From: Candidatus Omnitrophota bacterium
GTDB taxonomy: Bacteria > Omnitrophota > Gorgyraeia > B26-G9
Reading direction: 5' to 3'
Assembly: GCA_043826565.1 (NCBI GenBank)
Contig: JBDRPX010000037.1
Span: 5,669 to 69,668, forward strand
Length of the DNA stretch: 64,000 nucleotides
Under the pieces are notes generated by a model, which did no database searches, was not told the origin of the DNA, and was given only the letters and a program-made list of their open reading frames with translations. Below are positions 6,132 to 34,901 of this stretch, piece after piece. Numbering within the stretch: position 1 is the first letter of the stretch; every line of letters starts with the position of its first letter. The translations under genes were made by a program, and so were the position numbers.

Positions 6132-6170
6132 AAGATATTAACTCAAAAATCAAAGGTCAAAAGTCAAAAC

Positions 6171-11627: not shown

Positions 11628-13124
11628 ATGGAAAAACGAGGCAGCGGCATATTATTGCATATTTCGTCATTACCTTCTGATTTTGGCATCGGAGATATGG
11701 GCGAAGCGGCCTACAAATTCGTTGATTTTTTAGCCCAGGCAAAACAAAAATACTGGCAGGTACTCCCCTTTAACCCGACAAGTTTGATCAACGGCAGCTC
11801 TCCCTACAGCAGTGTCTCGGCGTTTGCCACCAATACATTATTGATCAGCCCGGAATTGTTGTGTAAGGACGGATTTCTTACCTCGGGGGAAATAGATTCA
11901 TCCTCTCAGAACGGCAGCAGGGCGGTTGACTATGAAAATGTTTTGGAATTAAAAGCCAAATTATTTGCCATAGCTTTCGAACGGTTTGAAAAACTTAAAG
12001 ATAAAGCTGGTTTTAATAATTTTTGTTCTGAAAATAAATATTGGTTGGATGATTTTGCCGCGTTCATCGCTTTTAAAGAACATTTTCAGGACTGCATTTG
12101 GACTGACTGGCCGAAGGAGATCAGGGATCGGGATAAAAAATCCATGAATGAGCTTAAAGAGCAGCTGACCCGGCAGATTAAAAAAGAAAAGTTTCTTCAA
12201 TATTTGTTTTTAAAACAATGGATTGGTTTGAAGAATTATTGTAACCAAAAAGGCGTTCAAGTTATCGGAGATATCCCGATCTATGTCACCTATGATAGTG
12301 TTGACGTGTGGAAAAATCCGGAAATTTTTAAACTTGATGAAAATAAAAACCCGGTTTATGTTGCCGGTGTACCTCCGGATTATTTTAGCAAAACCGGTCA
12401 GTTGTGGGGTAATCCGGTATATGATTGGGATGTGCTTGCTGAAAATAATTATTCCTGGTGGATGCAGCGAATAAATCATAATTTAAAACTTTTTGATTTA
12501 ATAAGGATTGATCATTTCCGGGGATTTGTGGATTATTGGCAGGTGAAAAACGCAGAGAAAACAGCAATTAATGGAGAGTGGCAAAAAGCTCCGGCAAAAG
12601 AATTCTTTAAAGCTTTGCTAAAAGAATTTCCCGAACTGCCGTTAATTGCGGAAGATCTGGGGATTATTACTGATGAGGTAAGGGAAACAATGAAATACTT
12701 TGGGTTCCCGGGGATGAAGATAGTGATGTTTGCCTTCGGAGAGGATGATCCGGAGCATCCTTATTTGCCGCAGAATTTTGCGACTAATTGTGTTGCTTAT
12801 ACCGGAACGCATGATAATAATACCGCCCGGGGCTGGTTTGAGCAAGAAACAACCCCGGAAGACCGAAAAAGACTTTCTGATTGTTTAGGTAAGGAAACAA
12901 ATGCCGATAAATTGCACTGGGATCTTATTGAGTTGTTAATGAAGTCTGCAGCGCATACAGTTATTTTTCCTTTGCAGGATGTTTTTGGCCTTCCACAAGC
13001 GGATCGTATGAATATCCCGGGAACAGTGGGCAATAACTGGAAATGGCGTTTTAAACCGGAACAAATTACTCCTCAGGTAACAGTTCAGCTGGCAAAAATG
13101 ACCGAGCAATATTCTCGCACCTAA
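11628..13124 (+). CDS. malQ: 4-alpha-glucanotransferase (amylomaltase, GH77)
   Basis: GSGILLHISSLPSDFGIGDMG N-terminus and GH77 motifs. Confidence 0.85.
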   Translation: MEKRGSGILLHISSLPSDFGIGDMGEAAYKFVDFLAQAKQKYWQVLPFNPTSLINGSSPYSSVSAFATNTLLISPELLCKDGFLTSGEIDSSSQNGSRAVDYENVLELKAKLFAIAFERFEKLKDKAGFNNFCSENKYWLDDFAAFIAFKEHFQDCIWTDWPKEIRDRDKKSMNELKEQLTRQIKKEKFLQYLFLKQWIGLKNYCNQKGVQVIGDIPIYVTYDSVDVWKNPEIFKLDENKNPVYVAGVPPDYFSKTGQLWGNPVYDWDVLAENNYSWWMQRINHNLKLFDLIRIDHFRGFVDYWQVKNAEKTAINGEWQKAPAKEFFKALLKEFPELPLIAEDLGIITDEVRETMKYFGFPGMKIVMFAFGEDDPEHPYLPQNFATNCVAYTGTHDNNTARGWFEQETTPEDRKRLSDCLGKETNADKLHWDLIELLMKSAAHTVIFPLQDVFGLPQADRMNIPGTVGNNWKWRFKPEQITPQVTVQLAKMTEQYSRT

Positions 13125-13151: not shown

Positions 13152-13180
13152 TTGCTAAAAAGAAAAAACTATGGTATAAT
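13152..13180 (+). promoter_or_regulatory. sigma70-type promoter TTGCTA-17-TGGTATAAT driving the riboswitch leader
   Basis: -35 ttgcta 13152-13157; extended -10 tggtataat 13172-13180. Confidence 0.55.
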
Positions 13181-13221
13181 TAAGTAGATTTAAAAAGTAT
13201 GTAATTTCTTAAATAAATCCG

Positions 13222-13362
13222 AAAAGGCAAAACTCAAGAAATTGAGTGACGCAAAGCCACGGGTCTAAAGCTTGATGCTAGGATCGCCGGGTATATCGAT
13301 AACGCGAAACTAGGAGCTTGTGATGGCCGGACTGCCGAAGAAAAAGGTAGTCTGGTTTTTTA
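13222..13362 (+). promoter_or_regulatory. c-di-GMP-I (GEMM) riboswitch aptamer (13222-13296) plus intrinsic terminator expression platform (13327-13361)
   Basis: GGCAAAAC-CUCAA-GAAA-UUGAG-UGACGCAAAGCC-ACGGGUCUAAAGC...GCCGGGU aligns almost position by position with the Vibrio Vc2 aptamer (GGCAAACC-P1 GNRA hairpin-GGGACGCAAAGCC-...CUAAA...). Downstream hairpin CCGGACUGCC-gaagaaaaa-GGUAGUCUGG followed by UUUUUU. Confidence 0.8.
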
Positions 13363-13568: not shown

Positions 13569-13648
13569 AATCTTTCCTAATTTATTATCCTTCAATATGT
13601 TATGCCTCTAAAAAAAGGCCATTTTTGTTTGCGCTACCCTCTAGAATA

Positions 13649-13657
13649 TGGTATACT
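13649..13657 (+). promoter_or_regulatory. extended -10 promoter TGGTATACT upstream of gene A
   Basis: tggtatact at 13649-13657; the same 9-mer recurs upstream of the sixth paralog (40478-40486). Confidence 0.4.
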
Positions 13658-13749
13658 TTAAAACCTTTTATGACTTCTCGCTTTTGCCCCTAACATTTTT
13701 TGTTTTAGCAGGTTAAGATTAATTAATAAAATAAAAGAACGTAGAAGAA

Positions 13750-16700
13750 ATGATGACCAGAAAAAGATTAAAGACTAGACGCTATACGCTGTGCGCTAAA
13801 CGCTTGGTTGTGTTTTTCCTGGTGCAGGCGATGGTTGCCGGCCCTTTGCCGGCGGCGCCGGCGGAGATGCTTACTCCCGCAATCCAAATTAACCATTCCG
13901 GACTGCAGCAGGCTTTTGTCGAAGCCGGCCAAGGAGAAAATTTTCTGCGGGAGTTTGTGGTCCGCAGAAAAGAGATATTATGTGAAGAATATTACGATAA
14001 GCAGAAACTATTACGTAAGGCGGCATATTCTACCGGAGAGATATTTGCGCAGTTTGATTATGACCAACACCGTCAGCTGCAGCATCCTGAAGCAATAGTT
14101 GATACTCTGGTTAACGCTGTTTTAACCAATACGGATATAGGAAAACAACAGGCCGCGGCGTATGTTTTAGAAACTATCAGAATCCCCAGGCGGGATCCCG
14201 GCATAGTTCGGACGGTCAGCAAAACAGATTTAAAAGTAATTGCCGAGAGCCTCGGTATTGCGCTGCACGGAGCTGATATTGATACGATAATTTTAAGTAA
14301 TGGGATCGTGCTTATGCCGGAGGGATATTCTCCCTCAAAAGTACGTGCTCGGGAACAGGTTAGCTTTTCTACTTTGTATTCCGGGGAACGGGCGTTTGGA
14401 GAATATCTTAGCCGGTTGGAAGCGCGGCGTGAGTCCGGGGAAAATAATTCGGCTTTGGATGAGGAGATTGTAACTCTTCGAAAGCTTAGGGATATGCGTA
14501 GATATATGCTTCGATTAACAGAAAAGGCGGATCAGGAGCGTGATTCGGTGATACCGATGCAGGAATATATTGCCGAGAAGGTAAAAACTGAATGGCTGGC
14601 TTGTGCCGGACAAGAAGGCCTTAGTAAAGACCAAGCTTTAAAATCAATCCAACAGGCGCGTATGCTGAACGTCGATTTAAAGTTAGCAGAGGATTTGCTA
14701 GATTTAGCCAAAAGGCATGAACAGGCTTTAGAAAACGAGTGGGTAATTGTTGGGCAGGAATTGCTTCAGGCACAGGAATTGTCCCGGCAAAACAGTAGTC
14801 AGGCAAACAGACAAATAGCTGATTATTGGCAGCGTTCTCACGCGTGTTTAGAACAACAGCTTGAGCAGGCCAAAGAGGAACGGAAAAAGGCTGAGCAGAA
14901 TTTTGAGGAAGAACGCACTTTACAGCTTAGGCAGGTTGAGGAGCACAGAAAAATCGTCAGAGATAATTCTCCGCACCAGATTTTGTTCGCCAAAAAAAGG
15001 AATATTAACACGATTACTTATCGCTTATTAACAATAGCCTTATGTTGTGCCGGGATAGAAGAGTTTAATGAATTAGACATAGACCTGGGCGCGGCCATTA
15101 TTATCGAGCGCGGAGAAAACGGGCCGTTTACAACCAGAGATGATTTTGTGCGGCGGATGTGCGAACGTTTAGGCGCGGATAAGAAATCGTTGATGAAAAA
15201 TATCTGCAAAAATTTCAGTAAGCTTACTATCCGCTTTTCCGCTGAACCTGTCGGAGAGCTGGAACTGGGGGTTGCCAGATATTATATGGACACGATGGAC
15301 GAATTACAGCGGGCGAAAGAACGATTTTCTTACCTGCGGCAGAGGCTGCATCAGGCCCAAGAAGAGCTGAGAGTTGCTTTATATCAGGAGTTAAAAATAA
15401 ACAATTCGTTTGCTGCGGCTGTGAGCGGTTATCCTGAATTGCAGCTGGATATTGAACGGACAGTTTCTTATTGTGAACGCAGTAGAGTTTCCTTCTCTGA
15501 TTATCATTCGCCAAAGTCTGAGTTTATTTCGGTTTTGCATGCTTTACAAAAAATATTTTCAAAAAGAGAGAACGCGGTTAGTTCCCGGATTGATTTCTAT
15601 ACCAATATTATATTTCAATTAATAGGCAGGCTTAGTTACTGGGAGGAAAAAGAAGATAAAGGGCTGAAGTTTTCTTCGAAAGAGATCCATGAATTTGAGC
15701 AGATAAAAATAATGTTGAGACTGCGCAAAATTGCGGAAAGCGGGCGCTATGTTTCGGACATCCATTGTTTTCAGCGTTTGCGGGATGAAGTAAGCAGGAT
15801 TAACTATACGGATGTATTACCGGGTTATCTGTCTACGGTAGCGATGAATGAGACATTATATGCCCGGGTGAATTCTCCGTGGAACATATTGATGAAAAAT
15901 CACCGGCGGGAGGCTCTGACGATGATTCCGGGAGCGGATGATGCGGTTCTTTTAGGAGTGCCGGCAAGGCATATCCTCTCCGAAGAACAGTCGCATCGAA
16001 TATTGGAGATCCCCATAGGATGGGAAATAGAGTTTACTTCGTCACAGCGGTATTTGCCTCCGGTGCCGCGGGAAAAATGGATAGATGCCATTATTCCCAA
16101 CGCCATAGAATTGCACGATAAAGGAGTTATTCTGGCGGATTTGCACAGGTTAAAAGAATATAATCTGCAGCCGACCTGGAGTTGGCGGACACAGCTATTG
16201 ATGCTGCGCAGAGTTATGTCCTTGGCGGGATTTAGCGGGACGCAGGCGGATTCTTTGCAGATTAATGTAGGGATTAAAGAAAAGGATTGGCAGATATTAA
16301 CTCCGGTGATGCGGGAAGACCTGGAAACCGATGCGCACTGGCTAATGTTTAATATTGTAGCAGCTTATGTCTCACCGGGAAGGATTGAACGCAAAAAAGT
16401 GGATAAAGTAGTCCAGGCAAAAGATGTTCAGGTTGTAGATATCGACGGAGAAAAATACCGCCGTTTCGAATATGCGTTTTGTGATTTTGAGAATATCGAA
16501 ATGATCGCGCCGCTGGTGCAGTATGGCCATACTTGTTTATTTTATTATTACTATGTGAGAAACGAATATGAACTGGGAAATTATAATGTTCCCGAATTAT
16601 ATAAGAAATTAGCCGCATTGGGAGAAAAATTAAGAAAGGCGGCTGACCGGGAGGATCTGGTAGGATTATTTGGTATCCAGCTGGATAAAGCTGGTACATA

Positions 16701-16905
16701 CCGGGAAAGCAGTTTGTTGACTCACCGGGAAAGAGGATCTAAACAGATTTTACAAATTAAAGGTATGTTGGATAATTTTCTGCGGGAATTTTGTGATCTT
16801 GCCGGATTACCCCGGGAAGTTGTATTGCCTGCAGAAGAACAAAAGCTTGTGCAGAAATTGAGTGATGAGGGATTTGAGATATTAATTATTGAACAGGCGA
16901 TATAG
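13750..16905 (+). CDS. large secreted protein, member A of EQAI-terminus paralog family (coiled-coil/Q-E-R-rich central region)
   Basis: signal-peptide-like N-term (LVVFFLVQAMVAGPLPAAPA), post-signal motif MLTPAIQINHSGLQQAF, C-terminal ...LIIEQAI-stop. Confidence 0.7.
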   Translation: MMTRKRLKTRRYTLCAKRLVVFFLVQAMVAGPLPAAPAEMLTPAIQINHSGLQQAFVEAGQGENFLREFVVRRKEILCEEYYDKQKLLRKAAYSTGEIFAQFDYDQHRQLQHPEAIVDTLVNAVLTNTDIGKQQAAAYVLETIRIPRRDPGIVRTVSKTDLKVIAESLGIALHGADIDTIILSNGIVLMPEGYSPSKVRAREQVSFSTLYSGERAFGEYLSRLEARRESGENNSALDEEIVTLRKLRDMRRYMLRLTEKADQERDSVIPMQEYIAEKVKTEWLACAGQEGLSKDQALKSIQQARMLNVDLKLAEDLLDLAKRHEQALENEWVIVGQELLQAQELSRQNSSQANRQIADYWQRSHACLEQQLEQAKEERKKAEQNFEEERTLQLRQVEEHRKIVRDNSPHQILFAKKRNINTITYRLLTIALCCAGIEEFNELDIDLGAAIIIERGENGPFTTRDDFVRRMCERLGADKKSLMKNICKNFSKLTIRFSAEPVGELELGVARYYMDTMDELQRAKERFSYLRQRLHQAQEELRVALYQELKINNSFAAAVSGYPELQLDIERTVSYCERSRVSFSDYHSPKSEFISVLHALQKIFSKRENAVSSRIDFYTNIIFQLIGRLSYWEEKEDKGLKFSSKEIHEFEQIKIMLRLRKIAESGRYVSDIHCFQRLRDEVSRINYTDVLPGYLSTVAMNETLYARVNSPWNILMKNHRREALTMIPGADDAVLLGVPARHILSEEQSHRILEIPIGWEIEFTSSQRYLPPVPREKWIDAIIPNAIELHDKGVILADLHRLKEYNLQPTWSWRTQLLMLRRVMSLAGFSGTQADSLQINVGIKEKDWQILTPVMREDLETDAHWLMFNIVAAYVSPGRIERKKVDKVVQAKDVQVVDIDGEKYRRFEYAFCDFENIEMIAPLVQYGHTCLFYYYYVRNEYELGNYNVPELYKKLAALGEKLRKAADREDLVGLFGIQLDKAGTYRESSLLTHRERGSKQILQIKGMLDNFLREFCDLAGLPREVVLPAEEQKLVQKLSDEGFEILIIEQAI

Positions 16906-16998
16906 AGTGGATTGCAAATTGCAAATAACAAATTGCAGATTAAACTAATGAAAATAAAAAAACAAATAAACTACATAATAATATTTTTGCTGGTGCAG
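16891..16998 (+). repeat. 108-nt junction repeat copy 1 (3' end of upstream gene + spacer + 5' signal-peptide coding of next gene)
   Basis: gaacaggcgatatagagtggattgcaaattgcaaataacaaattgcagattaaactaatgaaaataaaaaaacaaataaac...ctggtgcag, near-identical to 19720-19827. Confidence 0.9.
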
Positions 16999-19734
16999 AT
17001 GATAGCAATGAACAATGTTGTTTTTGCTCTTTCTCCTCAAATTAATATTAAAGGGGCAGCCTTGCAGAAAATTTTTGAGAGTAATAAAAAACCGCAAACC
17101 AGCCAGTTAATGGAACATGATTCCGGGAGGGGATACAGAGTATTTGATTTGCCGGAAGGATATCGTGATATTACTGTTGTTTTGATCCATCGCGGGGCCG
17201 GTTTTGGGAACCGGGGTGCGGTTAATAACCTATTAGTTAGTTTACAGCATCAATTCCGCGGTAAAAATATTAGTTTGCGATTAGCTTATAGTTTGGGGCG
17301 GCCGGGAGAAGAATCTGATCAGGAACTGCGTATGCAACAGGAGCTGATTGCTCAAAGAAATAGTAAGGCAGAAGCTGAAGGCCTGCCGAAAATTGAATTG
17401 GAAACATATTATACATTTACCATGGATGGAACACCGGTCATATCGGGGCTTCGAAAAACTGATGTGGCGATTTATTTTGGGTATGATTCTGCGGAAATGT
17501 TGGATGTGGCGCAGGATGAAGCTGATTTTTTAAGAAGAGAACAGATGGATGCAAAACTGGCATTTCATATTCCGATTTATGCTACCGGATACAGGCTTCG
17601 CGATGTTGATTATGCCCGCATTCTCAGAGGGGGAACAATACACAGAGTTATTCCGACAGCTAATTTTTTAAAAGGAACAGGCCGGATTGTTATTAACCCG
17701 GAACTTGTTGCGAAAAGTATCAAAATTGACGGATTAAATAAACAAGATGTTTTGCAGGAAAGAAGAAAGTTATTAGATAAACTGGGAGTAACGGAGATAC
17801 CTGATGGAGCTGAAGAAACAACTTGGGCATTTGCTTATACCCATAATTACGGAAAACTGGAAGAGTTTTTAAGAAATTGTGGAAAAAGCAAACAAAAGAT
17901 AACTCTTTTTCTTGCTCCAGGATATCTTATTAACCGGACGGTTAAATATTATTATAAAGATAATATCCGGCAGTTATTGGAATATTTTAAGGCTATCCCG
18001 GACAATGTTAATATTGTATTCTTAGAAGAAAATTTAGAGCGTAAAGACGCATATAACCAGATCATGCTTTTATCAGGAGTGTTGACGGAATATGGTTTAA
18101 AAGGGGGGTTTCCCAATCTGATTACCGGCGATCAATCGACCAGTGAAGTACTTTCGGCGCGCAGATTATTTGTGCATGACGGGATGAATGCGCAGGATGG
18201 AGATGAATTATGGCAGGGGTTATTTGCCGGGCCGCTGCAGAGATTTACCGTGCAATACAATGACTTGGAAGATATAGATAATAATTGGCCTAATCTGTTT
18301 ACTGCTAATCCCCAGGGAATGCCGGGAGAGTTTTCTGTCTTTAAGGCCATGGAAATGCAGATGGAATTTATTGCGGCCATAGACAGTATTCTAGAGCGGC
18401 GCAATATTGTTGATCATATTGGAAAGACGATTGTTGCCGAGGCAAGCCGTCAGGCTGCGGATGAGAACCTGGAAGCGATGTTAGATACTGCAGTGGTATT
18501 AAGAGAACAGTTAAATGGTTCGGTTTTTGAAAAAGTTTCCGCAGATATTTTTCAGGATGTTTATGTCTGTGTAAATCCCCGGACAAACCAATTTGTTACT
18601 TTATATGTTCCGACCAACATTGCTCAGCAATGGGAAACTAGTAATGGTGAAAAAGGTAAGCGTTTTGGCGGCCAGTATTCAGGAATGGTTGAACTGCACA
18701 ACCTGACGGGTATCGTCGGTGGAGAGCAACAGAAGCTTACTTTGGCTTTTGCCCATCCGGAAAATGGATTAGAACAAAATAATGATTTATCTATTCCCGG
18801 CAAAAAAGATCCGATGCTTGCTTTGACTGATGAGACATTTGGTTCCGGAGAAATAGCTAACTATGTGCAGAGGGTGCGGAATTTAATTATGGGAGAAAGC
18901 ATTGAGATTGTTAATATCCATTCTGAGCAGGAATTTAATGATTATCTGGGGATAGCGCCGGAGGAACATTCTGCGATTTTGTATTCAGAACATCCGGAGA
19001 CAACCTTAAGAGTTATGTGTAAAAACTTTAATGAAGATAAACCGCTGGCTAATATTAGAAAAGAACATACTTTTGCCGCGCGTATTCAGGCTAATGGCCG
19101 GGAATATATTTGGTTTGCCCAATTCTCCATCGGAGATGATAAGCAGATAAGATATAATGAAGCATATTTAATGAAGGTATTAGAGGAAACTGAGCATAAG
19201 TACCTGGAAGTCGGCCATGGATATTATGATGTGCCTAAAAATCCTGTTCCCGGTCATTGCTGTATTGATCTTATGTATGGAATTGATAACCGCTTTCGAT
19301 TTCAGGAAGCGCATATTAAGCATGCCCGGGCATTATTTGAACTGCGGTTAAAAGCGCTGGATAAGCTCTATAAACCTGCTGCATTTGTTATTCCTTCCGG
19401 ACAAATAATTTCAGATATTGCATTGTATTTTTACGGCCGGTTTGGATTTTTGCCCTTGGACTACGGAGCCAGAGCAGATGTGACTTCTAAATATTTAATT
19501 CCTTACCGGATTAAATCTCCGGGAAAAATGATCGGGGAGGGGATGGAAGTTTTTGGTAAATATCTGATTATCGGAGCGTTTGGAGATTTTGCTCTGGTGT
19601 TGAGACCGCAAGGGATCAAAGGGAGTAAAAGACATTTTGATATGCCGGAGATGTTAAAAAATAGAGGTATTCCCATATCAATGCAGCAACCGCCGGCACG
19701 AAGACATCTGGAGCTTATTGAACAGGCGATATAG
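16948..19734 (+). CDS. large secreted protein, member B of EQAI-terminus paralog family
   Basis: [17 protein letters not shown] signal peptide; ALSPQINIKGAALQKIF motif; C-term LELIEQAI-stop; C-terminal ~150-aa domain (EYIWFAQ...GHGYYD...FGFLPL) is shared with member E. Confidence 0.75.
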   Translation: MKIKKQINYIIIFLLVQMIAMNNVVFALSPQINIKGAALQKIFESNKKPQTSQLMEHDSGRGYRVFDLPEGYRDITVVLIHRGAGFGNRGAVNNLLVSLQHQFRGKNISLRLAYSLGRPGEESDQELRMQQELIAQRNSKAEAEGLPKIELETYYTFTMDGTPVISGLRKTDVAIYFGYDSAEMLDVAQDEADFLRREQMDAKLAFHIPIYATGYRLRDVDYARILRGGTIHRVIPTANFLKGTGRIVINPELVAKSIKIDGLNKQDVLQERRKLLDKLGVTEIPDGAEETTWAFAYTHNYGKLEEFLRNCGKSKQKITLFLAPGYLINRTVKYYYKDNIRQLLEYFKAIPDNVNIVFLEENLERKDAYNQIMLLSGVLTEYGLKGGFPNLITGDQSTSEVLSARRLFVHDGMNAQDGDELWQGLFAGPLQRFTVQYNDLEDIDNNWPNLFTANPQGMPGEFSVFKAMEMQMEFIAAIDSILERRNIVDHIGKTIVAEASRQAADENLEAMLDTAVVLREQLNGSVFEKVSADIFQDVYVCVNPRTNQFVTLYVPTNIAQQWETSNGEKGKRFGGQYSGMVELHNLTGIVGGEQQKLTLAFAHPENGLEQNNDLSIPGKKDPMLALTDETFGSGEIANYVQRVRNLIMGESIEIVNIHSEQEFNDYLGIAPEEHSAILYSEHPETTLRVMCKNFNEDKPLANIRKEHTFAARIQANGREYIWFAQFSIGDDKQIRYNEAYLMKVLEETEHKYLEVGHGYYDVPKNPVPGHCCIDLMYGIDNRFRFQEAHIKHARALFELRLKALDKLYKPAAFVIPSGQIISDIALYFYGRFGFLPLDYGARADVTSKYLIPYRIKSPGKMIGEGMEVFGKYLIIGAFGDFALVLRPQGIKGSKRHFDMPEMLKNRGIPISMQQPPARRHLELIEQAI

Positions 19735-19827
19735 AGTGGATTGCAAATTGCAAATAACAAATTGCAGATTAAACTAATGAAAATAAAAAAACAAATAAAC
19801 CACATAATAATATTTTTACTGGTGCAG
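19720..19827 (+). repeat. 108-nt junction repeat copy 2
   Basis: about 2 mismatches versus 16891-16998. Confidence 0.9.
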
Positions 19828-21069
19828 GTATTGTTTTTAATTCCGCATGCTTTAGCTTTAGATGAATATACATTGTCCCCCCAGCTGGTGGTAGGCGGAG
19901 GTTTTTTTGGTGAAGCTTATCTGCGGTTATTAGCGCAGGACGAAGCGCGTTTAAGCCGGCAGGAACAGGAAATTTTCACGCAGCTTTTTGATGCGCTTGA
20001 AATAGACCTGAACAGTTTGGCTTGGGACACACAAGGGAATGATTATGATTTATCCGAAGTGCCGGTTGCTGATATTAATGAAGATACTTTGCGGGAAATG
20101 TTTTGTTTGCCTTTTAGTTATAAAATCGGTGGTACTTTAGGGATTATTCGTTATCAAAATTTTCCGATATTAATTTATCTTTGTGATCAAGTAAGGAACG
20201 TAACTTTTATTGACCTGACAAAATATTATCGTTCATCATTTGCCGCTAATTTAGGCTGGGGAATTAAACAGGATATATGTATAATCTTTAAAAGGAAGAA
20301 TTTTTTTAAAGTAAGTCAAATTGAAATAACTCATCCGTATGTTACCGTAGCTATCAACGGCAGCGGTGATCTTGCTCATATTACCGAATATGATTTTAGT
20401 GATGAAGAGGCGGATGTCTTCCCCAGAAGAAAGATAGAATTACCTTTATTGCCCGGGGTCTGGATGCCCAAAAGTACGTCAAGTTATTTAATTGCCGAGG
20501 CAACTGCAGAATTTGTGCGTCCGGGGATGAGAGTGCTGGTTATTGGAACCGGAGCTGGCCTGGAAGCGCGGATTGCCGCGGAAAAAGGAGCCTTGGTCGA
20601 TGCGGTTGATATTAAGAAGCTGGCAGTTAGAAATACAAAACTGACATGTTCAGAAGAAGAGTATGCGGTGCGGGTTAATGCTTTTGTTAATAATATGTTT
20701 CATGGCTTGGGAAAATATGATTTGATTATCTGGAATATGCCGCATTTTGTCGGGACGGAAGAGCCAAAAGAGGATTTTCCCGATTATTCCAATAGTTCTG
20801 ATTTTACGGGGAAAATATTGCGGGAATTTGCGCAAAACGTATGTTCGCATTTGAAAAAAAATGGAAAAGCTGTTGTGATTAACAAAAGCGATGAACAGGT
20901 GAAACAGATCCTGGAATATTTTTCGGGTAAACATGTTGAGGATTATGGGGTCTCTAAAAAACGATACTCTCAAGGGTATATTATAGATAATCAACGGGTA
21001 AAAAGATGGAAGAAGATGAGGCCTTTCCCGGAAGGGATAATAAGTGTTTATATGGAGCAGGCGGTATAA
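19777..21069 (+). CDS. secreted protein, member C of EQAI-terminus family, with class I SAM-methyltransferase-like Rossmann domain
   Basis: [17 protein letters not shown]; TLSPQLVVGG motif; VLVIGTGAGLEARIAAEKGALVDAVDI (motif I) and IIWNMPHF (NPPY-like motif IV); C-term VYMEQAV-stop. Confidence 0.7.
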   Translation: MKIKKQINHIIIFLLVQVLFLIPHALALDEYTLSPQLVVGGGFFGEAYLRLLAQDEARLSRQEQEIFTQLFDALEIDLNSLAWDTQGNDYDLSEVPVADINEDTLREMFCLPFSYKIGGTLGIIRYQNFPILIYLCDQVRNVTFIDLTKYYRSSFAANLGWGIKQDICIIFKRKNFFKVSQIEITHPYVTVAINGSGDLAHITEYDFSDEEADVFPRRKIELPLLPGVWMPKSTSSYLIAEATAEFVRPGMRVLVIGTGAGLEARIAAEKGALVDAVDIKKLAVRNTKLTCSEEEYAVRVNAFVNNMFHGLGKYDLIIWNMPHFVGTEEPKEDFPDYSNSSDFTGKILREFAQNVCSHLKKNGKAVVINKSDEQVKQILEYFSGKHVEDYGVSKKRYSQGYIIDNQRVKRWKKMRPFPEGIISVYMEQAV

Positions 21070-21073
21070 GTAA

Positions 21074-21105
21074 AGAGTAGTGAGTAGCAAGTAGAGAGTA
21101 GAGAG
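21074..21105 (+). repeat. tandem heptamer array (AGAGTAG TGAGTAG CAAGTAG AGAGTAG) directly after stop codon
   Basis: 7-nt period places TAG in all three frames. Confidence 0.7.
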
Positions 21106-21123
21106 AAAGATAAAAAGTAAATA

Positions 21124-23568
21124 ATGAAAATAAAAAAACAAATAAACCACATAATAATATTTTTGCTGGCGCAAACATTTTTGTTCGGACAGTGTGTTTG
21201 GGCCGGACAGACGGATACTCTTGCGCCGCAATTAAAGGTGTATACACCTGTTTTGCATAAAGATTTTCTCCAACAGATGTCTATTTCTGTTGTCCCGATG
21301 CTTGCTGAACATCTTGATAAATTAGATATCAAGGAGCAATACATAGACGGGAAAGAGGATACTTTAACATTAATTCGCCAGGCGCATGACGGGCTTATAA
21401 GAGCAGGATATCCGATTTCTTCCCGGATAGTCAAAACATATACTCCGGAATACTTGCATATTGACGGTTGCTCAGCTTTTTCAACGGGAAGAATTCAAAT
21501 GGTTTGTTTTCGGGTAAACGGAAATTTTGATCAAAAAAGCATTGCTATCCCGCGGCCTCATGATGAAGCATATTGTTTTTCTTTAATAAGCGGAGGAAAA
21601 GTTGTCGGCCATGGAGTTCTAGCCTATGATTACCATCATCCGGATACGGTATTTTTTAGATATGCTATACACGGCAGCCATTTTATTGTAGATGGATATG
21701 ATTTTACAAATCAGGGGTTTGGAACAGACAGCCTCACATTACTGGCGGCAATCATAAAAACCGGGAAGCTTTTTCCTGCGAATATGCGGAAAATGGAGTA
21801 TTTAGCCAGTAATGATGACCTTTTAAAATGGGGCAATTTTTCTCCCATTTATAACCGGATGAAGAAGTTTTTGCTGAAATCCGGATTTGTTGATGCCTCA
21901 GAAGAGAGAATTGCGCCGTTTTTTGATATTACTAAACAAAACATCGGATTTAAGTTAGGAAATAATGATGAAGGCAGTGTTGCCGGACAAAGAGTTTATT
22001 TGTCAGCTAGTGTTGCCGGCTGTATTGGTAAGCCGGCAAAATATATTCATGATGCTTTGCTGAAAGTACCTCCGGAACTTATTGCGGAAGCATATTACCG
22101 GCGTTTTAACTTATTATCAAATCCATATGGCAAGGAATTTCAAGGTTTGTGGGGCCGGGATGAAACCAAAGCTATAGAATTCCTTGCGAGAGGATATAAA
22201 ACATTGCATGATCTTAATAGTCAGGGCCATGTCCGGGTAGATTTTATTCCGCATGATATGAAAGGAGATGTTCCGGAAGGATTAGAAGGCATGGTTTTGT
22301 TCAGTAATTCCAAGAAAGCTTATCAGACTGAATTTGTAGAATGGGCATGGGTTCCGGAAGTAGAAGCATGGCTGCCGGTAGCAGATGAAAGCGCTAAGAC
22401 TTCGCAACGGCCGGCATTTATACGTGTTGTGCTTACCGCGGATAAAAAGAAAGTAGTAAGAGTAGCGAAGAGCCTTACAAAAGATAAGTTACAGGAACTT
22501 ATCTTAGAGCATGGAGATTGTATTGTCTGCGGCAGAGTTCCGCCAAGTGCTCACTTGTCACTTGTGCGTGACAGTTCTCTGGGCATACGTGAAAGCGGAA
22601 ACTATACTATTGATGGAAAAGGAAATAATTTGTATATAGCATCTCTTAGCCGGGAAGGGGTGCCGACCGGTTTTCAGTTTTTTGGGAACGGAGAAAAGGT
22701 TCCACTGCGGGTAGCTGTAAAAAGAAATCGTGAAGGGAAAGTGATGGAGAGGATCGAATCCCAGAGATATTTTGCCGGAGAAACATTGGCGCAGATATAT
22801 GCGAAAAAAGGGCAGTATTGGGTGATGCCGGTCTATGTGCAAACCCCTGTTCATTCAGCCCGGCATACAAAGATCCAGGCTGGCTCACGTTTTGTTGTGA
22901 CCGGAGAAAAAGGAAAAAAAATCAAGAGCGAAGTAACAGAAGAAGTGGAATATAATTATTATCTGGATGCGGCATATTCCGGAGCAGAGGCGCAGCTTTT
23001 GATCGGCCGCTCCGGGGTGCCGGTTTATTTATATGTTTCCGGTGATGTCCGGAAGGGGGTGCCGGCATTAGAGTGCTTGTTAAAATTGATAGAGGTGAGG
23101 AATAGCCGGGATGAAGTTATTGATGTTATAAACTCATCTAATGCCGAGATATCCCGGCAAATTCTGCAAATAGCAGTAAAAAATGCCCGGGTTAAAGATG
23201 GACGCGTAGTAGTAACACGAATACCGGTAGAATCCTCTTTTTTAAAACGAAGCACTTTAGCTGTACGCTGCGGCGGAGAGGAAATATGTGTTAATCAAAA
23301 ATTGCCGGATTTCCCCGGTCAAAAATATGCGGAGCTGGTTTATGGAAAAAATAAATTTGATGCGCCGGTTCCGATTAGTATCAGAATAGGATTTTATGAG
23401 GGTGATGATCCGCTTAATTTTAACAAAATAAAATTTCATGTGTTAAAGGAATTTTTCATTGAACGTGCGCAAAATAATAAGTTCTATGAGACCAGAGAAA
23501 CAAAGACTTTGGTGGAAACTGAAAAAATGCCGCTGGAAAATTTAACTATTCTGGAACAGGCGATATGA
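21124..23568 (+). CDS. large secreted protein, member D of EQAI-terminus family
   Basis: [17 protein letters not shown]; TLAPQLKVYTPVLHKDF; C-term LTILEQAI-stop. Confidence 0.75.
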   Translation: MKIKKQINHIIIFLLAQTFLFGQCVWAGQTDTLAPQLKVYTPVLHKDFLQQMSISVVPMLAEHLDKLDIKEQYIDGKEDTLTLIRQAHDGLIRAGYPISSRIVKTYTPEYLHIDGCSAFSTGRIQMVCFRVNGNFDQKSIAIPRPHDEAYCFSLISGGKVVGHGVLAYDYHHPDTVFFRYAIHGSHFIVDGYDFTNQGFGTDSLTLLAAIIKTGKLFPANMRKMEYLASNDDLLKWGNFSPIYNRMKKFLLKSGFVDASEERIAPFFDITKQNIGFKLGNNDEGSVAGQRVYLSASVAGCIGKPAKYIHDALLKVPPELIAEAYYRRFNLLSNPYGKEFQGLWGRDETKAIEFLARGYKTLHDLNSQGHVRVDFIPHDMKGDVPEGLEGMVLFSNSKKAYQTEFVEWAWVPEVEAWLPVADESAKTSQRPAFIRVVLTADKKKVVRVAKSLTKDKLQELILEHGDCIVCGRVPPSAHLSLVRDSSLGIRESGNYTIDGKGNNLYIASLSREGVPTGFQFFGNGEKVPLRVAVKRNREGKVMERIESQRYFAGETLAQIYAKKGQYWVMPVYVQTPVHSARHTKIQAGSRFVVTGEKGKKIKSEVTEEVEYNYYLDAAYSGAEAQLLIGRSGVPVYLYVSGDVRKGVPALECLLKLIEVRNSRDEVIDVINSSNAEISRQILQIAVKNARVKDGRVVVTRIPVESSFLKRSTLAVRCGGEEICVNQKLPDFPGQKYAELVYGKNKFDAPVPISIRIGFYEGDDPLNFNKIKFHVLKEFFIERAQNNKFYETRETKTLVETEKMPLENLTILEQAI

Positions 23569-23573
23569 TCAAA

Positions 23574-23591
23574 GAGTAGCGAGTAGAGAGA
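23574..23591 (+). repeat. GAGTAG heptamer repeat (AGAGTAG CGAGTAG AGAG) after stop codon
   Basis: same motif as 21074-21105 and 30676-30710. Confidence 0.6.
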
Positions 23592-23607
23592 ATATATAAC
23601 GTAAGAT

Positions 23608-25593
23608 ATGAAAATAAAAAAACAAATAAACCACATAATAATATTTTTACTGGTACAGGCGATGAGTGCTGGTTCCCTGGCTATTGCTGTTCCGGAAGAC
23701 CGGACTTTATCTGCGAAAATTATCATTAATCAGCAATCCTTGCAGGAAGTATTTGCCCGTCTATCTCAACAGGATGATGAGGTGTTACAATGGGGTAGTT
23801 CCCGTATTCCTAACTCTCTGCCTCAAGAAAGTATCCCCGCGGAAATGTGGCGGGATACTTTTAGCAGAAATCCGGTTTCTCGATATATTCAAAATATTAG
23901 AGATAATATTACCGGAGCAGATGTTGATATTACTGTTTTAGATTCCACGGCGCAGTTATTAGAGTATCTGGGATTGACAGAACCGAGAGATATTGTTTGT
24001 TCCGGATATCTTAGTGAGCTGCAGCTTATGTGTCAATCAGCGGAAAAGCCGGAGTTTGTCAAAATGGTGACGCAATTAAAACAGCTTATGCCATCACAAA
24101 TGCCTGTGGGTAATATGCTGGCAGCACGTATTTATAAGAATGGGTATGAATATATCTGGATAACCCAGGTGCTTCCCGATCAGTCTATCCCGCCGGATGA
24201 TTTTATTTTTAATGAAACATATTTAGTAGCTGAAACTCAAAAGGGAAGAAAGAAATATGTTGAAATAGGTCATGGTTATTATGGAGTCAGCGGAGTTCAA
24301 GGCGGAAGAATCGGCTTATCTTTTGGGATTGATGAGGATTATCAATCCCGGCATAGAAACGGCGGGAAATTCAGCCATGCGCATAATATATTTGAATTCA
24401 GGCTGCAGGCATTAGAGACACTCTTTAGGCCGAGTATTCTTATTGTGCCTCAGGCGCAGGCAACAAGTGCACCTGATTTTTCCCGGAAAACAGTTTTATT
24501 TTACGCCGGATTCGGGTTTCTGCCTTTAAAAGATTTTAGAAGGGAACAGCTGGTTAACGGATATCTTTTGCCGGTGAAAATAAACCGGACTTTGGCAAAG
24601 ATAAAAAATCCCGCGGCGGTTTTTGACGATAAGTTTATGTATAAAGCCGGCGACTTCATGCTGATTTTAAGAGATAAAAGAACGGAAATAAAAGATGTTT
24701 GCAGACGATACCGGATCTTTGATGAAGCCGAAGTCCGGCAATATGAAGCGCTGAATGCGCGTTACGGTCAAAACCCCTCAGCTTTAGATGACTCAGAAGC
24801 ATACGATCTGTTTGGGTATTTGAGTATTACAGGAAGGCTTAACCAGGGAAATAATTATGCCGTGCTTATTCAGAGAATCGGATGGCTGAAGGCTCAGGCC
24901 CAAAAAGGAGGAGAATTTAAACAGCAAATCGGCGGTAAATACATTGGCCATATTGTCGGGATGAACGATGTCTTGAATCCGGCAGCGCCGTATTTAGATA
25001 TTAAGCCCCAGGATACTGTGCTTGATATCGGTTTTGCCGTCGGCGGAGAAACGATTGGTTTAGCAGCAGCTCATCCGGAGGCTGATTTTGTTATGGCTAA
25101 CCCGGAACTGAGATTTGTACAGCATGCTGTTCGTCAGGCGGAATCTTACCGGCCTTTGTTAAATAATTTGCGGATTGCTCCAAAAGTTTTTGAGGAACTT
25201 GCTTTACCGGCACATTCGGTTAATCATATTATTATTCGTAACATTTTCTTTGACTTAGATGAGGTGAAGATAAAAGATATGCTGATAGAATTAATGCGCA
25301 TTGCCGCCCCGGATGCTACGATTGTAATTACCGGATATCGGCATTTAGAGAAAAATACACAGGAAAATGCTCGAGCTGGTATAAAACCTGAGTATAATCT
25401 GGAGTTATTGACAGAAGTATGTGCAGAGATGGGGATTAGTTATACGGTTGATCATCCCACATCTTTTCCTAATCGTGATGCGCGGATCAGGCTAATTCCG
25501 GCGAGTCGACGAAATACATTATTCGAAGAGACCCAAGCTGTGAGTTTAAAAAAGAAAGCAGAGCCAGCTGTTTTTGTCGAACAGGCAATATAA
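23608..25593 (+). CDS. secreted protein, member E of EQAI-terminus family; N-terminal half shares domain with B, C-terminal half SAM-MTase-like
   Basis: [27 protein letters not shown]; [18 protein letters not shown]; YEYIWITQ...GHGYYGV...FGFLPL; [14 protein letters not shown] (motif I); C-term VFVEQAI-stop. Confidence 0.75.
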
Positions 25594-25639
25594 TCCATCC
25601 TTTACCCTTACCGGTTTTTCCTATATAATAACATCTACT

Positions 25640-30659: not shown

Positions 30660-30675
30660 ATAACTAACTAAATAA

Positions 30676-30734
30676 GAAGTAGCGAGTAGAGAGTAGCAGG
30701 TAGAGAGAGAAAGCCTGCTACTCACTGCTTTTTT
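30676..30734 (+). terminator. GAGTAG heptamer array merged with rho-independent terminator after dnaK
   Basis: GAAGTAG CGAGTAG AGAGTAG CAGGTAG; stem gagtagcagg/cctgctactc with 13-nt loop, then T-tract ctttttt. Confidence 0.7.
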
Positions 30735-30743
30735 AGGAGAAAT

Positions 30744-34049: not shown

Positions 34050-34166
34050 ATCAAAAATCAAAAGGCAAAAGTCAAAATTACAAGTTACAAATCAAAATTA
34101 TTAAAAACTAAAAAAACAAAAGGCTTTAGAATTTTTTAAGTTTGAGTTAACTATAAGGTATTAAAA

Positions 34167-34745: not shown

Positions 34746-34901
34746 AATTAAATCAAAAGTCAAAGGTCAAAAGTCAAAAATGCAACTCAAAATTAAAAAG
34801 TGAGATGTGTTTTTTGCTTATTCTGGTGAAAGTAATTTTGCTTTTTGAATTTTGACTTTAGAAGATTATGTTGAATATTCTTAAGAAAGGAGCTTCAAAA
34901 A

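What the first reader, a model, noticed from the sequence alone, without database searches (positions are those of the whole stretch)
16885..19833. Two near-identical 108-nt junction repeats (gene 3' end + spacer + signal-peptide codons), partial copies at two further junctions
The A/B and B/C junctions carry the same sequence (gaacaggcgatatagagtggattgcaaattgcaaataacaaattgcagattaaactaATGaaaataaaaaaacaaataaac...ctggtgcag) with about 2 mismatches. The first about 50 nt of the D and E coding regions repeat the 3' half. The spacer contains three AAATTGCA units. Conserved 5' and 3' ends around variable bodies resemble recombination cassettes, where homology arms permit gene conversion or shuffling among paralogs (cf. 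vlp/vsp or pilS-type systems). The domain shuffling seen between B and E fits that picture.
Basis: seen in the sequence. Interest (0 to 1): 0.65.

Follow-up and report, generated by a model that had tools for sequence, protein, structure and literature searches.

The report
Shared address labels on tandem secreted-protein genes
The repeated junctions are the DNA for a shared export signal and a shared six-residue tail carried by five neighbouring, otherwise unrelated genes of an uncultured Omnitrophota bacterium; recent copying between neighbours made them near-identical, and nothing points to a programmed gene-shuffling device.

Summary
A 113-nt block at 16886-16998 recurs at 19715-19827 with 2 mismatches, and its 3' half recurs at the starts of genes D and E.

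The block consists of the last five codons plus stop of one gene, a 42-nt spacer, and the first 17 codons of the next gene. Five tandem genes (A-E, 13750-25593) lie between malQ and hflX in a Candidatus Omnitrophota MAG.

All five proteins, and at least 17 others in this MAG and in related Omnitrophota, share three features:
- a Sec-type signal peptide;
- an L[S/A]PxIxI motif;
- a C-terminal tail ending in (E)Q-A-I.

Their bodies are mostly unrelated (methyltransferase, HAD, HD, CYTH and orphan domains).

Other species keep the ends as protein but use different codons, so the ends look like protein-level sorting labels. Near-identity at the DNA level is confined to B-E. It uses minority codons and drops to random similarity after codon 17. 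That fits recent gene conversion or unequal crossover.

I found no silent cassettes, no expression site and no recombinase. The "AAATTGCA" units belong to 7-nt-periodic spacers found across this genome. A c-di-GMP-I riboswitch lies upstream of the array.

The parts
13152..13180 (+). Distal promoter-like site, TTGCTA-17-TATAAT with an extended -10 TG, upstream of the riboswitch
   Evidence: Consensus scan, 10 of 12 matches. TGGTATAATTAA at 13172.
13216..13300 (+). c-di-GMP-I riboswitch aptamer (RF01051)
   Evidence: Infernal score 67.5 bits against a gathering score of 35, E 1e-11, full model 1-87.
13325..13361 (+). Intrinsic terminator hairpin (12-bp stem GGCCGGACUGCC/GGUAGUCUGGUU) plus a U tract. 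Likely the riboswitch expression platform.
   Evidence: Read from the sequence. The hairpin is present in both the MFE and centroid folds; z-score -2.95.
13629..13670 (+). Proximal promoter (-35 TTGCGC, 17 nt, TG-TATACT) followed by a conserved start region TTTAAAACCTTTT. Other family loci carry the same element.
   Evidence: Exact TGGTATACTTTA occurs only at 13649 and 40478 in the window. The same motif lies upstream of family genes in L083, L084, L085, L002, L003, L007, L008 and L090, L091, L092, L095.
13750..16905 (+). Gene A, 1051 aa. Divergent signal peptide, LTPAIQI motif, tail IIEQAI. No Pfam domain.
16886..16998 (+). Junction repeat copy 1: last 5 codons and stop of A, 42-nt spacer, first 17 codons of B
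16906..16947 (+). Type-1 spacer, a 7-nt-period tandem repeat (ATTGCAA x4.4). No Shine-Dalgarno sequence and no stable RNA fold.
   Evidence: (z = 0.35).
16948..19734 (+). Gene B, 928 aa. Leader [24 protein letters not shown] motif, tail LIEQAI. Its C-terminal domain is related to the N-terminal domain of E.
19715..19827 (+). Junction repeat copy 2: tail and stop of B, 42-nt spacer, first 17 codons of C
19777..21069 (+). Gene C, 430 aa. Same leader, LSPQLVV motif, class I SAM methyltransferase domain, tail MEQAV. Its ortholog is the single gene at this slot in L002.
21070..21123 (+). Type-2 spacer, 7-nt-period AGTAGAG x5.3
   Evidence: The same type of spacer occurs in the dnaK/dnaJ gap and in the L085 array.
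21124..23568 (+). Gene D, 814 aa. Same leader, LAPQLKV motif, tail ILEQAI. No Pfam domain.
23569..23607 (+). Type-2 spacer, shorter copy (AAAGAGTAGCGAGTAGAGAG...)
23608..25593 (+). Gene E, 661 aa. Same leader, LSAKIII motif, B-like domain plus a methyltransferase domain, tail FVEQAI. Its end overlaps the listed hflX ORF (25574-26884), which follows it.
40539..42947 (+). Gene F, 802 aa. A dispersed sixth family member: its own leader, LAPQVQI motif, tail LVENAI, and the family promoter at 40478.

Best explanation
The repeats are the coding sequence of two short protein labels plus the spacer between them. Genes A-E form a tandem array in a Candidatus Omnitrophota genome.

Shown: each gene encodes a protein with
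- a basic, then hydrophobic, N-terminal signal peptide with small-residue (A-x-A type) cleavage candidates;
- an L[S/A]PxIxI...L(Q)..F motif 5-20 residues further on;
- a body that differs from gene to gene;
- a C-terminal hydrophobic-hydrophobic-E-Q-A-I tail.

Also shown: the same pair of labels marks at least 22 proteins with mostly unrelated bodies, in this MAG and in related Omnitrophota. The two labels co-occur far more often than chance allows.

Inferred: the labels are sorting signals. The protein would be exported by Sec and signal peptidase I. The new N-terminal motif and the C-terminal tail would then be read by an unidentified factor that retains, processes or secretes the cargo.

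Inferred, with strong support: near-identity at the DNA level within this array (A/B versus B/C junctions, and the leaders of B-E) is a recent patch made by homologous recombination between neighbours. That could be gene conversion or unequal crossover anchored in the label-coding ends. The same process would let the slot between malQ and hflX gain and lose whole genes; relatives hold 0, 1 or 2 genes there.

Inferred: the array is one operon. It would be driven by a family-specific promoter about 100 nt upstream of A and, from further upstream, by read-through of a c-di-GMP-I riboswitch terminator.
For: Anatomy of the repeat.

Protein-level conservation. The tail precedes three different stop codons and varies synonymously (GCG/GCA/GCC). 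Its final Ile is ATA in this MAG but ATT or ATC in L003, L007, L008 and L084.

The signature is real across species. An exhaustive hmmsearch of 1.84 billion representative proteins, using only the N-terminal profile, returned 17 hits. Seven were the query sequences themselves (A-F and P0003), 8 were new N-terminal hits and 2 were repeat-protein false positives. All 8 new hits carry the tail: 7 directly, and P0012 through its full-length cluster mate P0020. Among 859 ORFs of at least 200 aa in the window and fetched loci, 19 have the tail. 17 of those 19 are family members: 16 match the N-motif pattern, and H3 carries a variant (LAPSINA) that the pattern missed.

All 22 members have a basic n-region. 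21 have one hydrophobic segment at about residues 5-30 (L003 falls just below the threshold) and 21 have a small-residue cleavage candidate (all but L006). The bodies are mostly unrelated.

A variable slot. Relatives have malQ, then 0, 1 or 2 family genes, then hflX.

Homogenisation.
- The leader uses minority codons: ATA 27%, AAC 19%, CAC 15%, CAA 28% of their synonymous sets.
- Two independent copies would share all 12 of these codons with probability about 4e-4.
- B-E share 47-50 of the first 51 nt, then 14-24 of the next 51.
- Paralogs H2 and H3 of the same MAG encode similar leaders at only 34-38 of 51 nt, so the nucleotide sequence is not itself required.
- Neighbouring genes in the other arrays (L085, L092, L090) are not homogenised.

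Operon and regulation. Spacers are short (39-54 nt) and none of the terminator-like sites found lies in a spacer between A-E. Riboswitch and terminator. Shared promoter.
Against: - No experiment or dedicated predictor confirms signal-peptide cleavage. My check was a simple hydrophobicity and small-residue rule.
- Several bodies are enzymes that need cytoplasmic cofactors (SAM methyltransferases, HAD, HD, a kinase-like domain). Export to a periplasm is hard to reconcile with that unless the enzymes act in another cell.
- No candidate reader of the tail was found, and no neighbouring gene is conserved across loci.
- Gene conversion is inferred from one assembly. No strain variants exist in the databases searched.
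- The dispersed copy G differs from the B-E leader only at non-synonymous positions. This leaves room for some selection on the nucleotide sequence.
- A promoter lies between the riboswitch and gene A, so the riboswitch's control of the array is not established. No other family locus has such a riboswitch.
- Both structure predictions failed.
Confidence: 0.68

Rival explanations
1. Programmed recombination cassettes. The junction repeats are dedicated homology arms of a diversity-generating system that shuffles or converts gene bodies at high frequency, as in vlp/vsp or pilE/pilS.
For: Conserved ends flank variable bodies. Gene B is flanked by a 113-nt direct repeat with 86 nt of uninterrupted identity. 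The slot varies in gene number between species. B and E share one domain in different positions.
Against: All copies are complete genes in one orientation with short spacers. There are no silent or truncated cassettes and no single expression site. The bodies are unrelated folds or domains, not alleles of one antigen. None of the 17 window ORFs scanned has a recombinase, invertase or transposase domain. The other arrays of the family (L085, L092, L090) lack homogenised junctions. The B/E domain is only 32% identical, with no DNA similarity.
Confidence: 0.08
2. Nucleotide-level functional element. The junction (tail codons, spacer, A-rich leader) is conserved by selection as a translation-initiation or coupling element, or as a regulator-binding site, not by recombination.
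For: The family genes lack Shine-Dalgarno sequences. The junction RNA is unstructured and the leader is A-rich, as is typical of efficient start regions. Heptamer repeats next to SD-poor starts have been proposed as translational elements in Beggiatoaceae (PMC4679880). Copy G differs from B-E only at non-synonymous sites.
Against: Paralogs in the same genome (H1-H3, F, A) use different codons and different spacers for the same protein features. The C/D and D/E spacers differ from A/B and B/C although the leaders that follow are identical. AAATTGCA is not enriched in the window.
Confidence: 0.14
3. Plain recent tandem duplication followed by divergence, with no gene conversion. The junctions would simply be the youngest parts.
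For: The array is tandem. The type-1 spacers are identical at 42 of 42 nt.
Against: Sequence immediately outside the 113-nt block is at random similarity on both sides. The gene bodies show no detectable similarity. A young duplication would leave extended flanking identity. The leader stays 92-98% identical while the adjacent type-2 spacers have diverged.
Confidence: 0.07
4. Assembly artefact. The metagenome assembler mis-joined or duplicated a repeat, so the order A-B-C is not real.
For: The source is a MAG. An independent Logan assembly of the same sample carries no record of B, D or E, as expected if contigs break at the repeats.
Against: The two copies differ at two positions, and each is linked to a different body. 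The leader occurs four times before four different complete ORFs. The independent Logan contig matches the window at 11,980 of 11,980 nt downstream. Misassembly could permute the order but could not create the repeats.
Confidence: 0.03

Closest known systems
Helicobacter pylori bab/Hop outer-membrane-protein paralogs (babA/babB/babC)
   Same: These paralogs have conserved 5' and 3' ends around variable middles. Intragenomic homologous recombination or gene conversion anchored in the ends produces chimeras and changes which gene sits at which locus (PMC4552749).
   Different: bab genes are dispersed variants of one adhesin fold, and their long conserved 3' region encodes a structural domain. 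Here the genes are tandem, the bodies are unrelated, the conserved 3' end is only about 6 codons, and no chimeras have been observed.
Phytoplasma SVM (sequence-variable mosaic) signal-peptide motif, Pfam PF12113, on effectors such as SAP11 and SAP54
   Same: A conserved signal-peptide module sits in front of unrelated mature secreted proteins in a host-dependent bacterium (PMC8026896).
   Different: There is no sequence relationship: neither the Pfam nor the NCBIfam scans matched the ends of A-E. SVM proteins have no conserved C-terminal tail and are linked to mobile units. The family here also has a mature N-terminal motif and a shared promoter.
Two-ended cargo labels of dedicated sorting systems: T9SS cargo (Sec signal plus C-terminal domain) and PEP-CTERM/exosortase-type C-terminal signals
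   Same: An N-terminal Sec signal plus a conserved C-terminal label is shared by functionally diverse cargo within one lineage (PMC11285876 for the T9SS CTD).
   Different: The T9SS CTD is a folded beta-sandwich domain (PMC11285876). PEP-CTERM-type signals contain a transmembrane helix and a basic cluster (from my own knowledge). Here the C-terminal label is about 6 residues with a free -A-I carboxyl end and no transmembrane segment. No matching machinery was identified.
Antigenic-variation cassette systems (Borrelia vlp/vsp, Neisseria pilE/pilS)
   Same: Conserved flanks around variable segments can serve as homology for gene conversion.
   Different: Those systems have one expressed locus plus silent, often truncated, donor cassettes of the same protein (from my own knowledge). 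None of these features is present here.
c-di-GMP-I riboswitch-controlled surface and secreted-protein genes (for example Clostridioides difficile and Bacillus thuringiensis adhesins and pili)
   Same: A full-length c-di-GMP-I aptamer with a terminator platform lies upstream of genes for exported proteins (PMC6366702, PMC4933901).
   Different: The aptamer is 450 nt from the first start codon, with a second promoter in between. The lineage (Omnitrophota) and the cargo differ from the studied cases.
Intergenic heptamer direct repeats (TAACTGA repeats of Beggiatoaceae, some Cyanobacteria and Bacteroidetes)
   Same: [quoted passage not shown]
   Different: Here the unit sequence changes from gap to gap (ATTGCAA, AGTAGAG, TCAAAAG, AAAATCA) and only the 7-nt period is constant. 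The arrays start right after stop codons.

Membership tests
Antigenic-variation or recombination cassette system (vlp/vsp, pilE/pilS type) | Silent, promoterless or truncated donor cassettes alongside one expression locus | tested here: not met
   All five genes are complete ORFs with a start codon, signal peptide and stop codon, in one orientation with 39-54-nt spacers.
Antigenic-variation or recombination cassette system (vlp/vsp, pilE/pilS type) | Variable regions are alleles of one protein and can be aligned with each other | tested here: not met
   BLASTP of the bodies finds no similarity except the B/E domain at 32%. Pfam content differs between genes.
Antigenic-variation or recombination cassette system (vlp/vsp, pilE/pilS type) | Observed recombinant or chimeric variants within a population | not testable with these tools
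   No close variants exist in 5.8 billion proteins. The leader has no match in the GTDB representative genomes or in JGI metagenomes.
Site-specific shuffling systems (shufflon, invertase or integron type) | A recombinase gene next to the repeats; inverted or attC-like sites | tested here: not met
   None of the 17 window ORFs scanned (A-E, hflX, hrcA and ten further ORFs) has a recombinase, integrase or transposase domain; the remaining window ORFs were not scanned. The repeats are direct and coincide with coding ends.
Paralog family homogenised by gene conversion (bab/Hop-like behaviour) | A sharply bounded tract of near-identity between paralogs whose flanks are diverged, with synonymous sites identical inside the tract | tested here: met
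   111 of 113 nt identical, with random flanks. Leaders share 47-50 of 51 nt and then 14-24 of 51. Minority codons are shared at all 12 codons, P about 4e-4 per pair. Same-genome paralogs H2 and H3 share only 34-38 of 51.
Sec/SPase I signal peptide | Basic n-region, hydrophobic h-region of about 10-20 residues, small residues at positions -3 and -1 of a cleavage site | tested here: met
   All 22 members have +2 to +6 net charge in the first 14 residues. 21 have one hydrophobic segment at about 5-30 (L003 falls just below the threshold) and 21 have small-residue cleavage candidates, mostly at about 22-35 (none for L006). This was a rule-based scan, not SignalP, and has no experimental support.
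T9SS cargo (C-terminal domain) | A folded C-terminal beta-sandwich domain | tested here: not met
   Conservation is limited to the last 6 or so residues. No CTD model matched in Pfam or NCBIfam.
PEP-CTERM, GlyGly-CTERM or LPXTG type C-terminal sorting signals | Motif followed by a transmembrane helix and a basic cluster at the C-terminus | tested here: not met
   There is no hydrophobic segment at the C-terminus. The protein ends directly in -Q-A-I. NCBIfam sorting-signal models did not match.
Phytoplasma SVM signal motif (PF12113) | A match to the Pfam SVM signal model | tested here: not met
   Pfam scans of A-E, F and the relatives gave no such hit.
c-di-GMP-I riboswitch (RF01051) | Covariance-model score above the Rfam gathering threshold over the full aptamer | tested here: met
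   67.5 bits against 35, model positions 1-87 of 87, E 1e-11.
c-di-GMP-I riboswitch (RF01051) | An expression platform, and ligand-dependent control of the downstream genes | tested here: inconclusive
   A terminator hairpin and U tract at 13325-13361 are predicted. A further promoter lies before gene A, and ligand response cannot be tested here.

The most novel reading that the evidence does not exclude
The Sec signal, the L[S/A]PxIxI motif and the hydrophobic-hydrophobic-E-Q-A-I carboxyl tail together form the address label of an undescribed protein-sorting or secretion route in a clade of Omnitrophota. This route would take enzymes of cytoplasmic type (SAM methyltransferases, HAD and HD hydrolases, CYTH/kinase modules, a protein carrying an RGGDEF motif) out of the cell, possibly into host or prey cells. 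The genes would form a regulon with a shared promoter, partly wired to c-di-GMP. The label-coding ends would double as recombination anchors that let whole effector genes be swapped, gained and lost at fixed chromosomal slots (malQ-hflX and downstream of pgi).
Probability: 0.3. Interest if true: 0.8.

Novelty: new variant of a known kind. Interest (0 to 1): 0.58.

Why it matters
Omnitrophota are uncultured nanobacteria, widespread and thought to depend on hosts or prey. How they deliver proteins to the outside is unknown. The literature on their giant proteins already notes 'cytoplasmic' enzyme domains sitting behind signal peptides (10.1101/2023.11.21.568195; 10.64898/2026.06.07.730766).

This family offers a short label that can be searched by sequence. 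It marks a set of diverse cargo proteins, comes with a shared promoter, and in one case has a c-di-GMP riboswitch upstream. That gives a concrete handle for defining an effector repertoire and for hunting the machinery that reads the label.

For the original claim, the result is a caution. Conserved gene ends around variable bodies need not mean a variation device. Here they are best read as sorting signals, with occasional concerted evolution on top.

Tried and rejected
- Exact-product look-ups for B, D, E and hflX found nothing. The short-read Logan assembly probably breaks at the repeats. Only hrcA gave a contig, identical to the window.
- Degenerate leader scans of the GTDB representative genomes and of JGI metagenomes gave 0 hits.
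- Word-indexed homolog searches with E, with the N-terminal alignment and with C returned only self, B, the L002 ortholog and one fragment. Only the exhaustive HMM search found the family.
- PDB sequence searches for B, D and F found nothing.
- AlphaFold models were unusable, so no fold search was run and my guess that the B/E domain is GNAT-like stays untested. The B/E shared domain gave pLDDT 50.8 and protein C gave 41.4.
- I looked for a conserved neighbouring gene as a candidate reader and found none.
- I rejected AAATTGCA as a specific operator. Its count equals chance and the 7-nt periodicity is genome-wide.
- I rejected a structured RNA in the junction (z = 0.35).
- I found no other c-di-GMP riboswitch at family loci in relatives.
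- Of 12 metagenome loci matching the promoter motif, 6 are unrelated sequences: four with about 20% GC (L087-L089, L097) and L094/L096. L086 has no family gene, and L093 ends 38 nt after the motif.
Full report
**1. The observation**

Reading 15800-21500 and listing ORFs shows five consecutive + strand genes:
- A, 13750-16905
- B, 16948-19734
- C, 19777-21069
- D, 21124-23568
- E, 23608-25593

They lie between malQ (11628-13124) and hflX (listed as 25574-26884).

The repeat finder reports a 113-nt direct repeat, 16886-16998 versus 19715-19827, at 98% identity. The two mismatches are at 16972 and 16989, and the 40 nt on either side match at the random level.

A 41-nt string at the start of the coding regions occurs four times, at 16948, 19777, 21124 and 23608, with 0-1 mismatch. 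Shuffles give an expectation of 0.

The block has three parts: the last five codons and the stop codon of the upstream gene, a 42-nt spacer, and the first 17 codons of the downstream gene.

The 'three AAATTGCA units' are two exact copies plus one 7-of-8 copy. The octamer is not enriched in the window (8 found, 7.9 expected).

**2. What the conserved ends encode**

All five proteins begin with a basic, then hydrophobic, segment. In B-E this is MKIKKQIN[H/Y]IIIFLL[V/A]Q. About 10-25 residues later comes L[S/T/A]PxIxI followed by L(Q)..F.

All five end in E-Q-A-[I/V], after two mostly hydrophobic residues, in front of three different stop codons: TAG, TAA and TGA. A sixth gene in the window, F (40539-42947), has the same architecture with a different leader and the tail LVENAI.

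Pfam and NCBIfam find class I SAM methyltransferase domains in C and E. They find nothing in A, B, D or F.

The bodies do not resemble each other, with one exception. A 280-residue domain is shared by the C-terminal part of B and the N-terminal part of E, at 32% identity.

**3. Source organism and relatives**

E and B are annotated in NCBI as proteins of a Candidatus Omnitrophota MAG (locus tags ABII88_) on a 118,753-bp contig. A Logan contig from run SRR26275510 is identical to the window over 11,980 nt.

I used HflX to fetch related loci. The closest relatives show the same synteny, malQ then hflX, with a variable number of family genes between them:
- one in L002, a 36%-identical ortholog of C ending in LVGEAI;
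- one each in L003, L006 and L008, ending in LLESSI, LVEQAI and LGQSI;
- two in L007;
- none in L004, L010, L013 or L014.

The single genes carry quite different bodies:
- L002 has a methyltransferase domain;
- L003 has a HAD hydrolase domain;
- the L006 protein is 2362 aa with DHH, PRK and CYTH domains.

**4. The two labels go together**

I built a 64-position profile from the N-termini only and ran it exhaustively against 1.84 billion representative proteins. It gave 17 hits at E <= 1e-3: the seven query sequences themselves (A-F and P0003), two internal-repeat false positives, and eight new proteins matched at their N-termini.

All eight new proteins end in the tail:
- P0009, LILESI
- P0010, LVEQAI
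- P0011, LLEQAI
- P0014, LLEQAI
- P0015, PIETAI
- P0016, AVEQAI
- P0017, FINQAV
- P0012, which is truncated, through its full-length cluster mate P0020, SINEAV.

In the window plus all fetched loci, 19 of 859 ORFs of at least 200 aa have the tail. 17 of those 19 are family members: 16 match the N-motif pattern, and H3 carries a variant that the pattern missed.

The N-terminal features are consistent across the 22 members:
- All 22 have a basic n-region.
- 21 have a single N-terminal hydrophobic segment (L003 falls just below the threshold).
- 21 have small-residue cleavage candidates (all but L006).
- Only one member, H1, has further membrane-like segments.

Body domains include methyltransferases, a Kdo-transferase-like domain plus HD, LMW phosphatase, HAD and CYTH. 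One member (P0014) carries an RGGDEF motif that I saw by eye; Pfam did not call a domain there.

Accession numbers show that P0009, P0014 and P0016 come from the same MAG. P0014 sits in a second tandem array of three complete family genes plus one partial (L085). This genome therefore has at least 12 members.

I found no description of this label pair in the Omnitrophota literature I could search. That literature does note signal peptides in front of 'cytoplasmic' enzyme domains in giant proteins.

**5. Why the DNA is near-identical here**

Across species the ends are conserved as protein but not as DNA. The terminal Ile is ATA, ATT or ATC, the Ala is GCG, GCA, GCC or GCT, and the leaders are written quite differently.

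Within B-E the leader uses minority codons at most positions (ATA 27%, AAC 19%, CAC 15%, CAA 28% of their synonymous sets). Codons 2-13 are the same in C, D and E; B differs only at codon 9 (TAC for CAC). The chance that two independent copies share all 12 is about 4e-4.

Identity over the first 51 nt is 47-50 of 51 among B-E. Against the dispersed copy G it is 45-46. Against H2 and H3 of the same genome it is only 34-38. Over the next 51 nt it falls to 14-24 of 51 for every pair.

Neighbouring genes in the other arrays (L085, L092, L090) do not have homogenised leaders.

So the exact nucleotide sequence is not required for function, and the sharp-edged patch is best explained by recent homologous recombination between neighbours. 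A plain young duplication is unlikely, because nothing outside the patch is similar.

The 113-nt direct repeat around B contains 86 nt of uninterrupted identity. That could support precise loss or duplication of B. Whether this happens cannot be tested with the data available.

**6. What argues against a programmed cassette system**

- No silent or truncated copies.
- No single expression site.
- No inverted sites.
- No recombinase or transposase domain in the 17 window ORFs scanned; the remaining ORFs were not scanned.
- The bodies are unrelated proteins.

The nearest behavioural analogue is the H. pylori bab/Hop family, in which conserved gene ends mediate intragenomic gene conversion (PMC4552749). 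For the shared signal in front of unrelated secreted proteins, the nearest analogue is the phytoplasma SVM signal motif (PMC8026896).

**7. The spacers**

Both spacer types are degenerate 7-nt tandem repeats. A/B and B/C carry ATTGCAA x4.4. C/D carries AGTAGAG x5.3, and D/E has a shorter copy.

This is a property of the whole genome. Period-7 arrays sit just after stop codons in many gaps. Self-identity at lag 7 in the first 45 nt after 39 stop codons is 0.404, against 0.27-0.35 at other lags apart from lag 14 (0.377), and 0.25 in coding sequence.

An AGTAGAG spacer also lies between dnaK and dnaJ. Heptamer-type spacers also separate family genes in L085 (AGTAGAG type) and L092 (AAAGACA type).

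The junction RNA has no stable fold, and the family genes lack Shine-Dalgarno sequences. Intergenic heptamer repeats next to SD-poor start codons have been described in Beggiatoaceae, where a translational role was proposed (PMC4679880).

**8. Regulation**

The 625-nt gap upstream of A contains, in order:
- a promoter-like site, 13152-13180;
- a full-length c-di-GMP-I aptamer, 13216-13300, at 67.5 bits against a gathering score of 35;
- a 12-bp terminator hairpin with a U tract, 13325-13361;
- a second promoter, 13629-13657, whose extended -10 and following bases read TGGTATACTTTAAAACCTTTT.

Upstream of family genes in relatives, the -10 core (TGGTATACTT, with one-base variants in L085 and L007) recurs in L002, L003, L007, L008 and L085. 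L083 and L084 carry the full 20-nt string.

Within the window, the exact 12-mer occurs only upstream of A and F.

A metagenome scan for the 20-mer found 12 loci:
- In L090 (two copies), L091, L092 and L095 a family gene follows each copy.
- L093 ends 38 nt after the motif.
- Six are unrelated sequences: four with about 20% GC, plus L094/L096.
- L086 has no family gene.

I infer a family regulon, with this one array additionally open to c-di-GMP-dependent read-through. No other family locus examined has the riboswitch.

**9. Limits**

Signal-peptide cleavage, the role of the tail and the destination of the proteins are all inferences. The methyltransferase, HAD and HD bodies need cytoplasmic cofactors. 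That fits delivery into another cell better than a periplasmic function, but this is speculation.

Both structure predictions failed for lack of homologs. No population data were available.

**10. Verdict**

The repeat is real. It is best explained as label-coding gene ends of a lineage-restricted family of exported proteins, homogenised locally by recombination. The cassette-variation reading is not supported as stated.

What is new is the label pair itself and its regulon, not the DNA repeat.

Noticed in passing
window 13216-13300 (aptamer), 13325-13361 (terminator), 13152-13180 (promoter-like site): A full-length c-di-GMP-I riboswitch (67.5 bits) with a terminator platform lies in the gap between malQ and gene A. 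It was not found at any other family locus or in the relatives examined.
   Followed up: partly
window, many intergenic gaps: 1768-1795, 6143-6169, 16911-16941, 19740-19770, 21069-21105, 30678-30707, 34048-34077, 34753-34779, 35384-35436, 50963-50981: Intergenic spacers are built from degenerate 7-nt tandem units that start right after stop codons. The unit differs from gap to gap (TCAAAAG, ATTGCAA, AGTAGAG, AAAATCA). Lag-7 self-identity is 0.40 after stop codons against 0.25 in coding sequence. This resembles the heptamer repeats reported in Beggiatoaceae and Cyanobacteria, but without a fixed unit.
   Followed up: partly
window 13649-13670 and 40478-40489; L083 5641; L084 1971; L090, L091, L092, L095: A conserved extended -10 promoter plus start region (TGGTATACTTTAAAACCTTTT) precedes the first gene of family loci in several species. 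This suggests a co-regulated set with a conserved element at or just after the transcription start.
   Followed up: partly
L083 5732-8077; L084 2047-4572: A second conserved chromosomal slot for the family lies directly downstream of pgi. It holds P0009 in this MAG and P0010 in a JGI metagenome organism, with unrelated bodies.
   Followed up: partly
L085 2601-10064 (same MAG, locus tag ABII88_07495 region): A second tandem array of three complete family genes plus one partial, separated by AGTAGAG-type spacers. The leaders of its adjacent genes are only 42 of 51 nt identical.
   Followed up: partly
L082 1183-2225 versus L003 8719-9762: In a Logan strain variant the L003-type gene (leader plus HAD hydrolase) is split into a 132-aa leader fragment and a separate 186-aa HAD ORF. 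In L005 a HAD gene without a leader occupies the same position. This hints that leaders are gained or lost on an otherwise ordinary enzyme.
   Followed up: no
L090 545-4427 (- strand): A 914-aa family ORF lacks the tail. It overlaps a 386-aa ORF that ends in IQSAI. This is probably one gene interrupted by a frameshift or a sequencing error.
   Followed up: no
window 38077-38877: A 266-aa protein with an N-terminal hydrophobic segment ends in FLESI, which is tail-like, but it lacks the LSPxIxI motif. This may be coincidence or a partial relative.
   Followed up: no
signal peptides of all family members, e.g. window 16990-16998 (CTG GTG CAG): A glutamine is conserved in the middle of the hydrophobic core of the signal peptide ([LIV][LIV]Q). 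In A and E the leader continues CAG GCG ATG, which echoes the tail codons CAG GCG ATA. I could not judge its significance.
   Followed up: no
window 30660-30743: The dnaK-dnaJ gap holds AGTAGAG repeats whose last units form the 5' arm of a hairpin (GAGTAGCAGG...CCTGCTACTC) followed by a T run. This looks like an internal attenuator or terminator in the hrcA-grpE-dnaK-dnaJ operon.
   Followed up: no
window 58219-61023: Type II secretion or type IV pilus-like genes lie in the same window as the family genes: a pseudopilin with an N-methylation motif and a T2SS-J domain, and a PilM/PilN-like protein. No link to the family was established.
   Followed up: no
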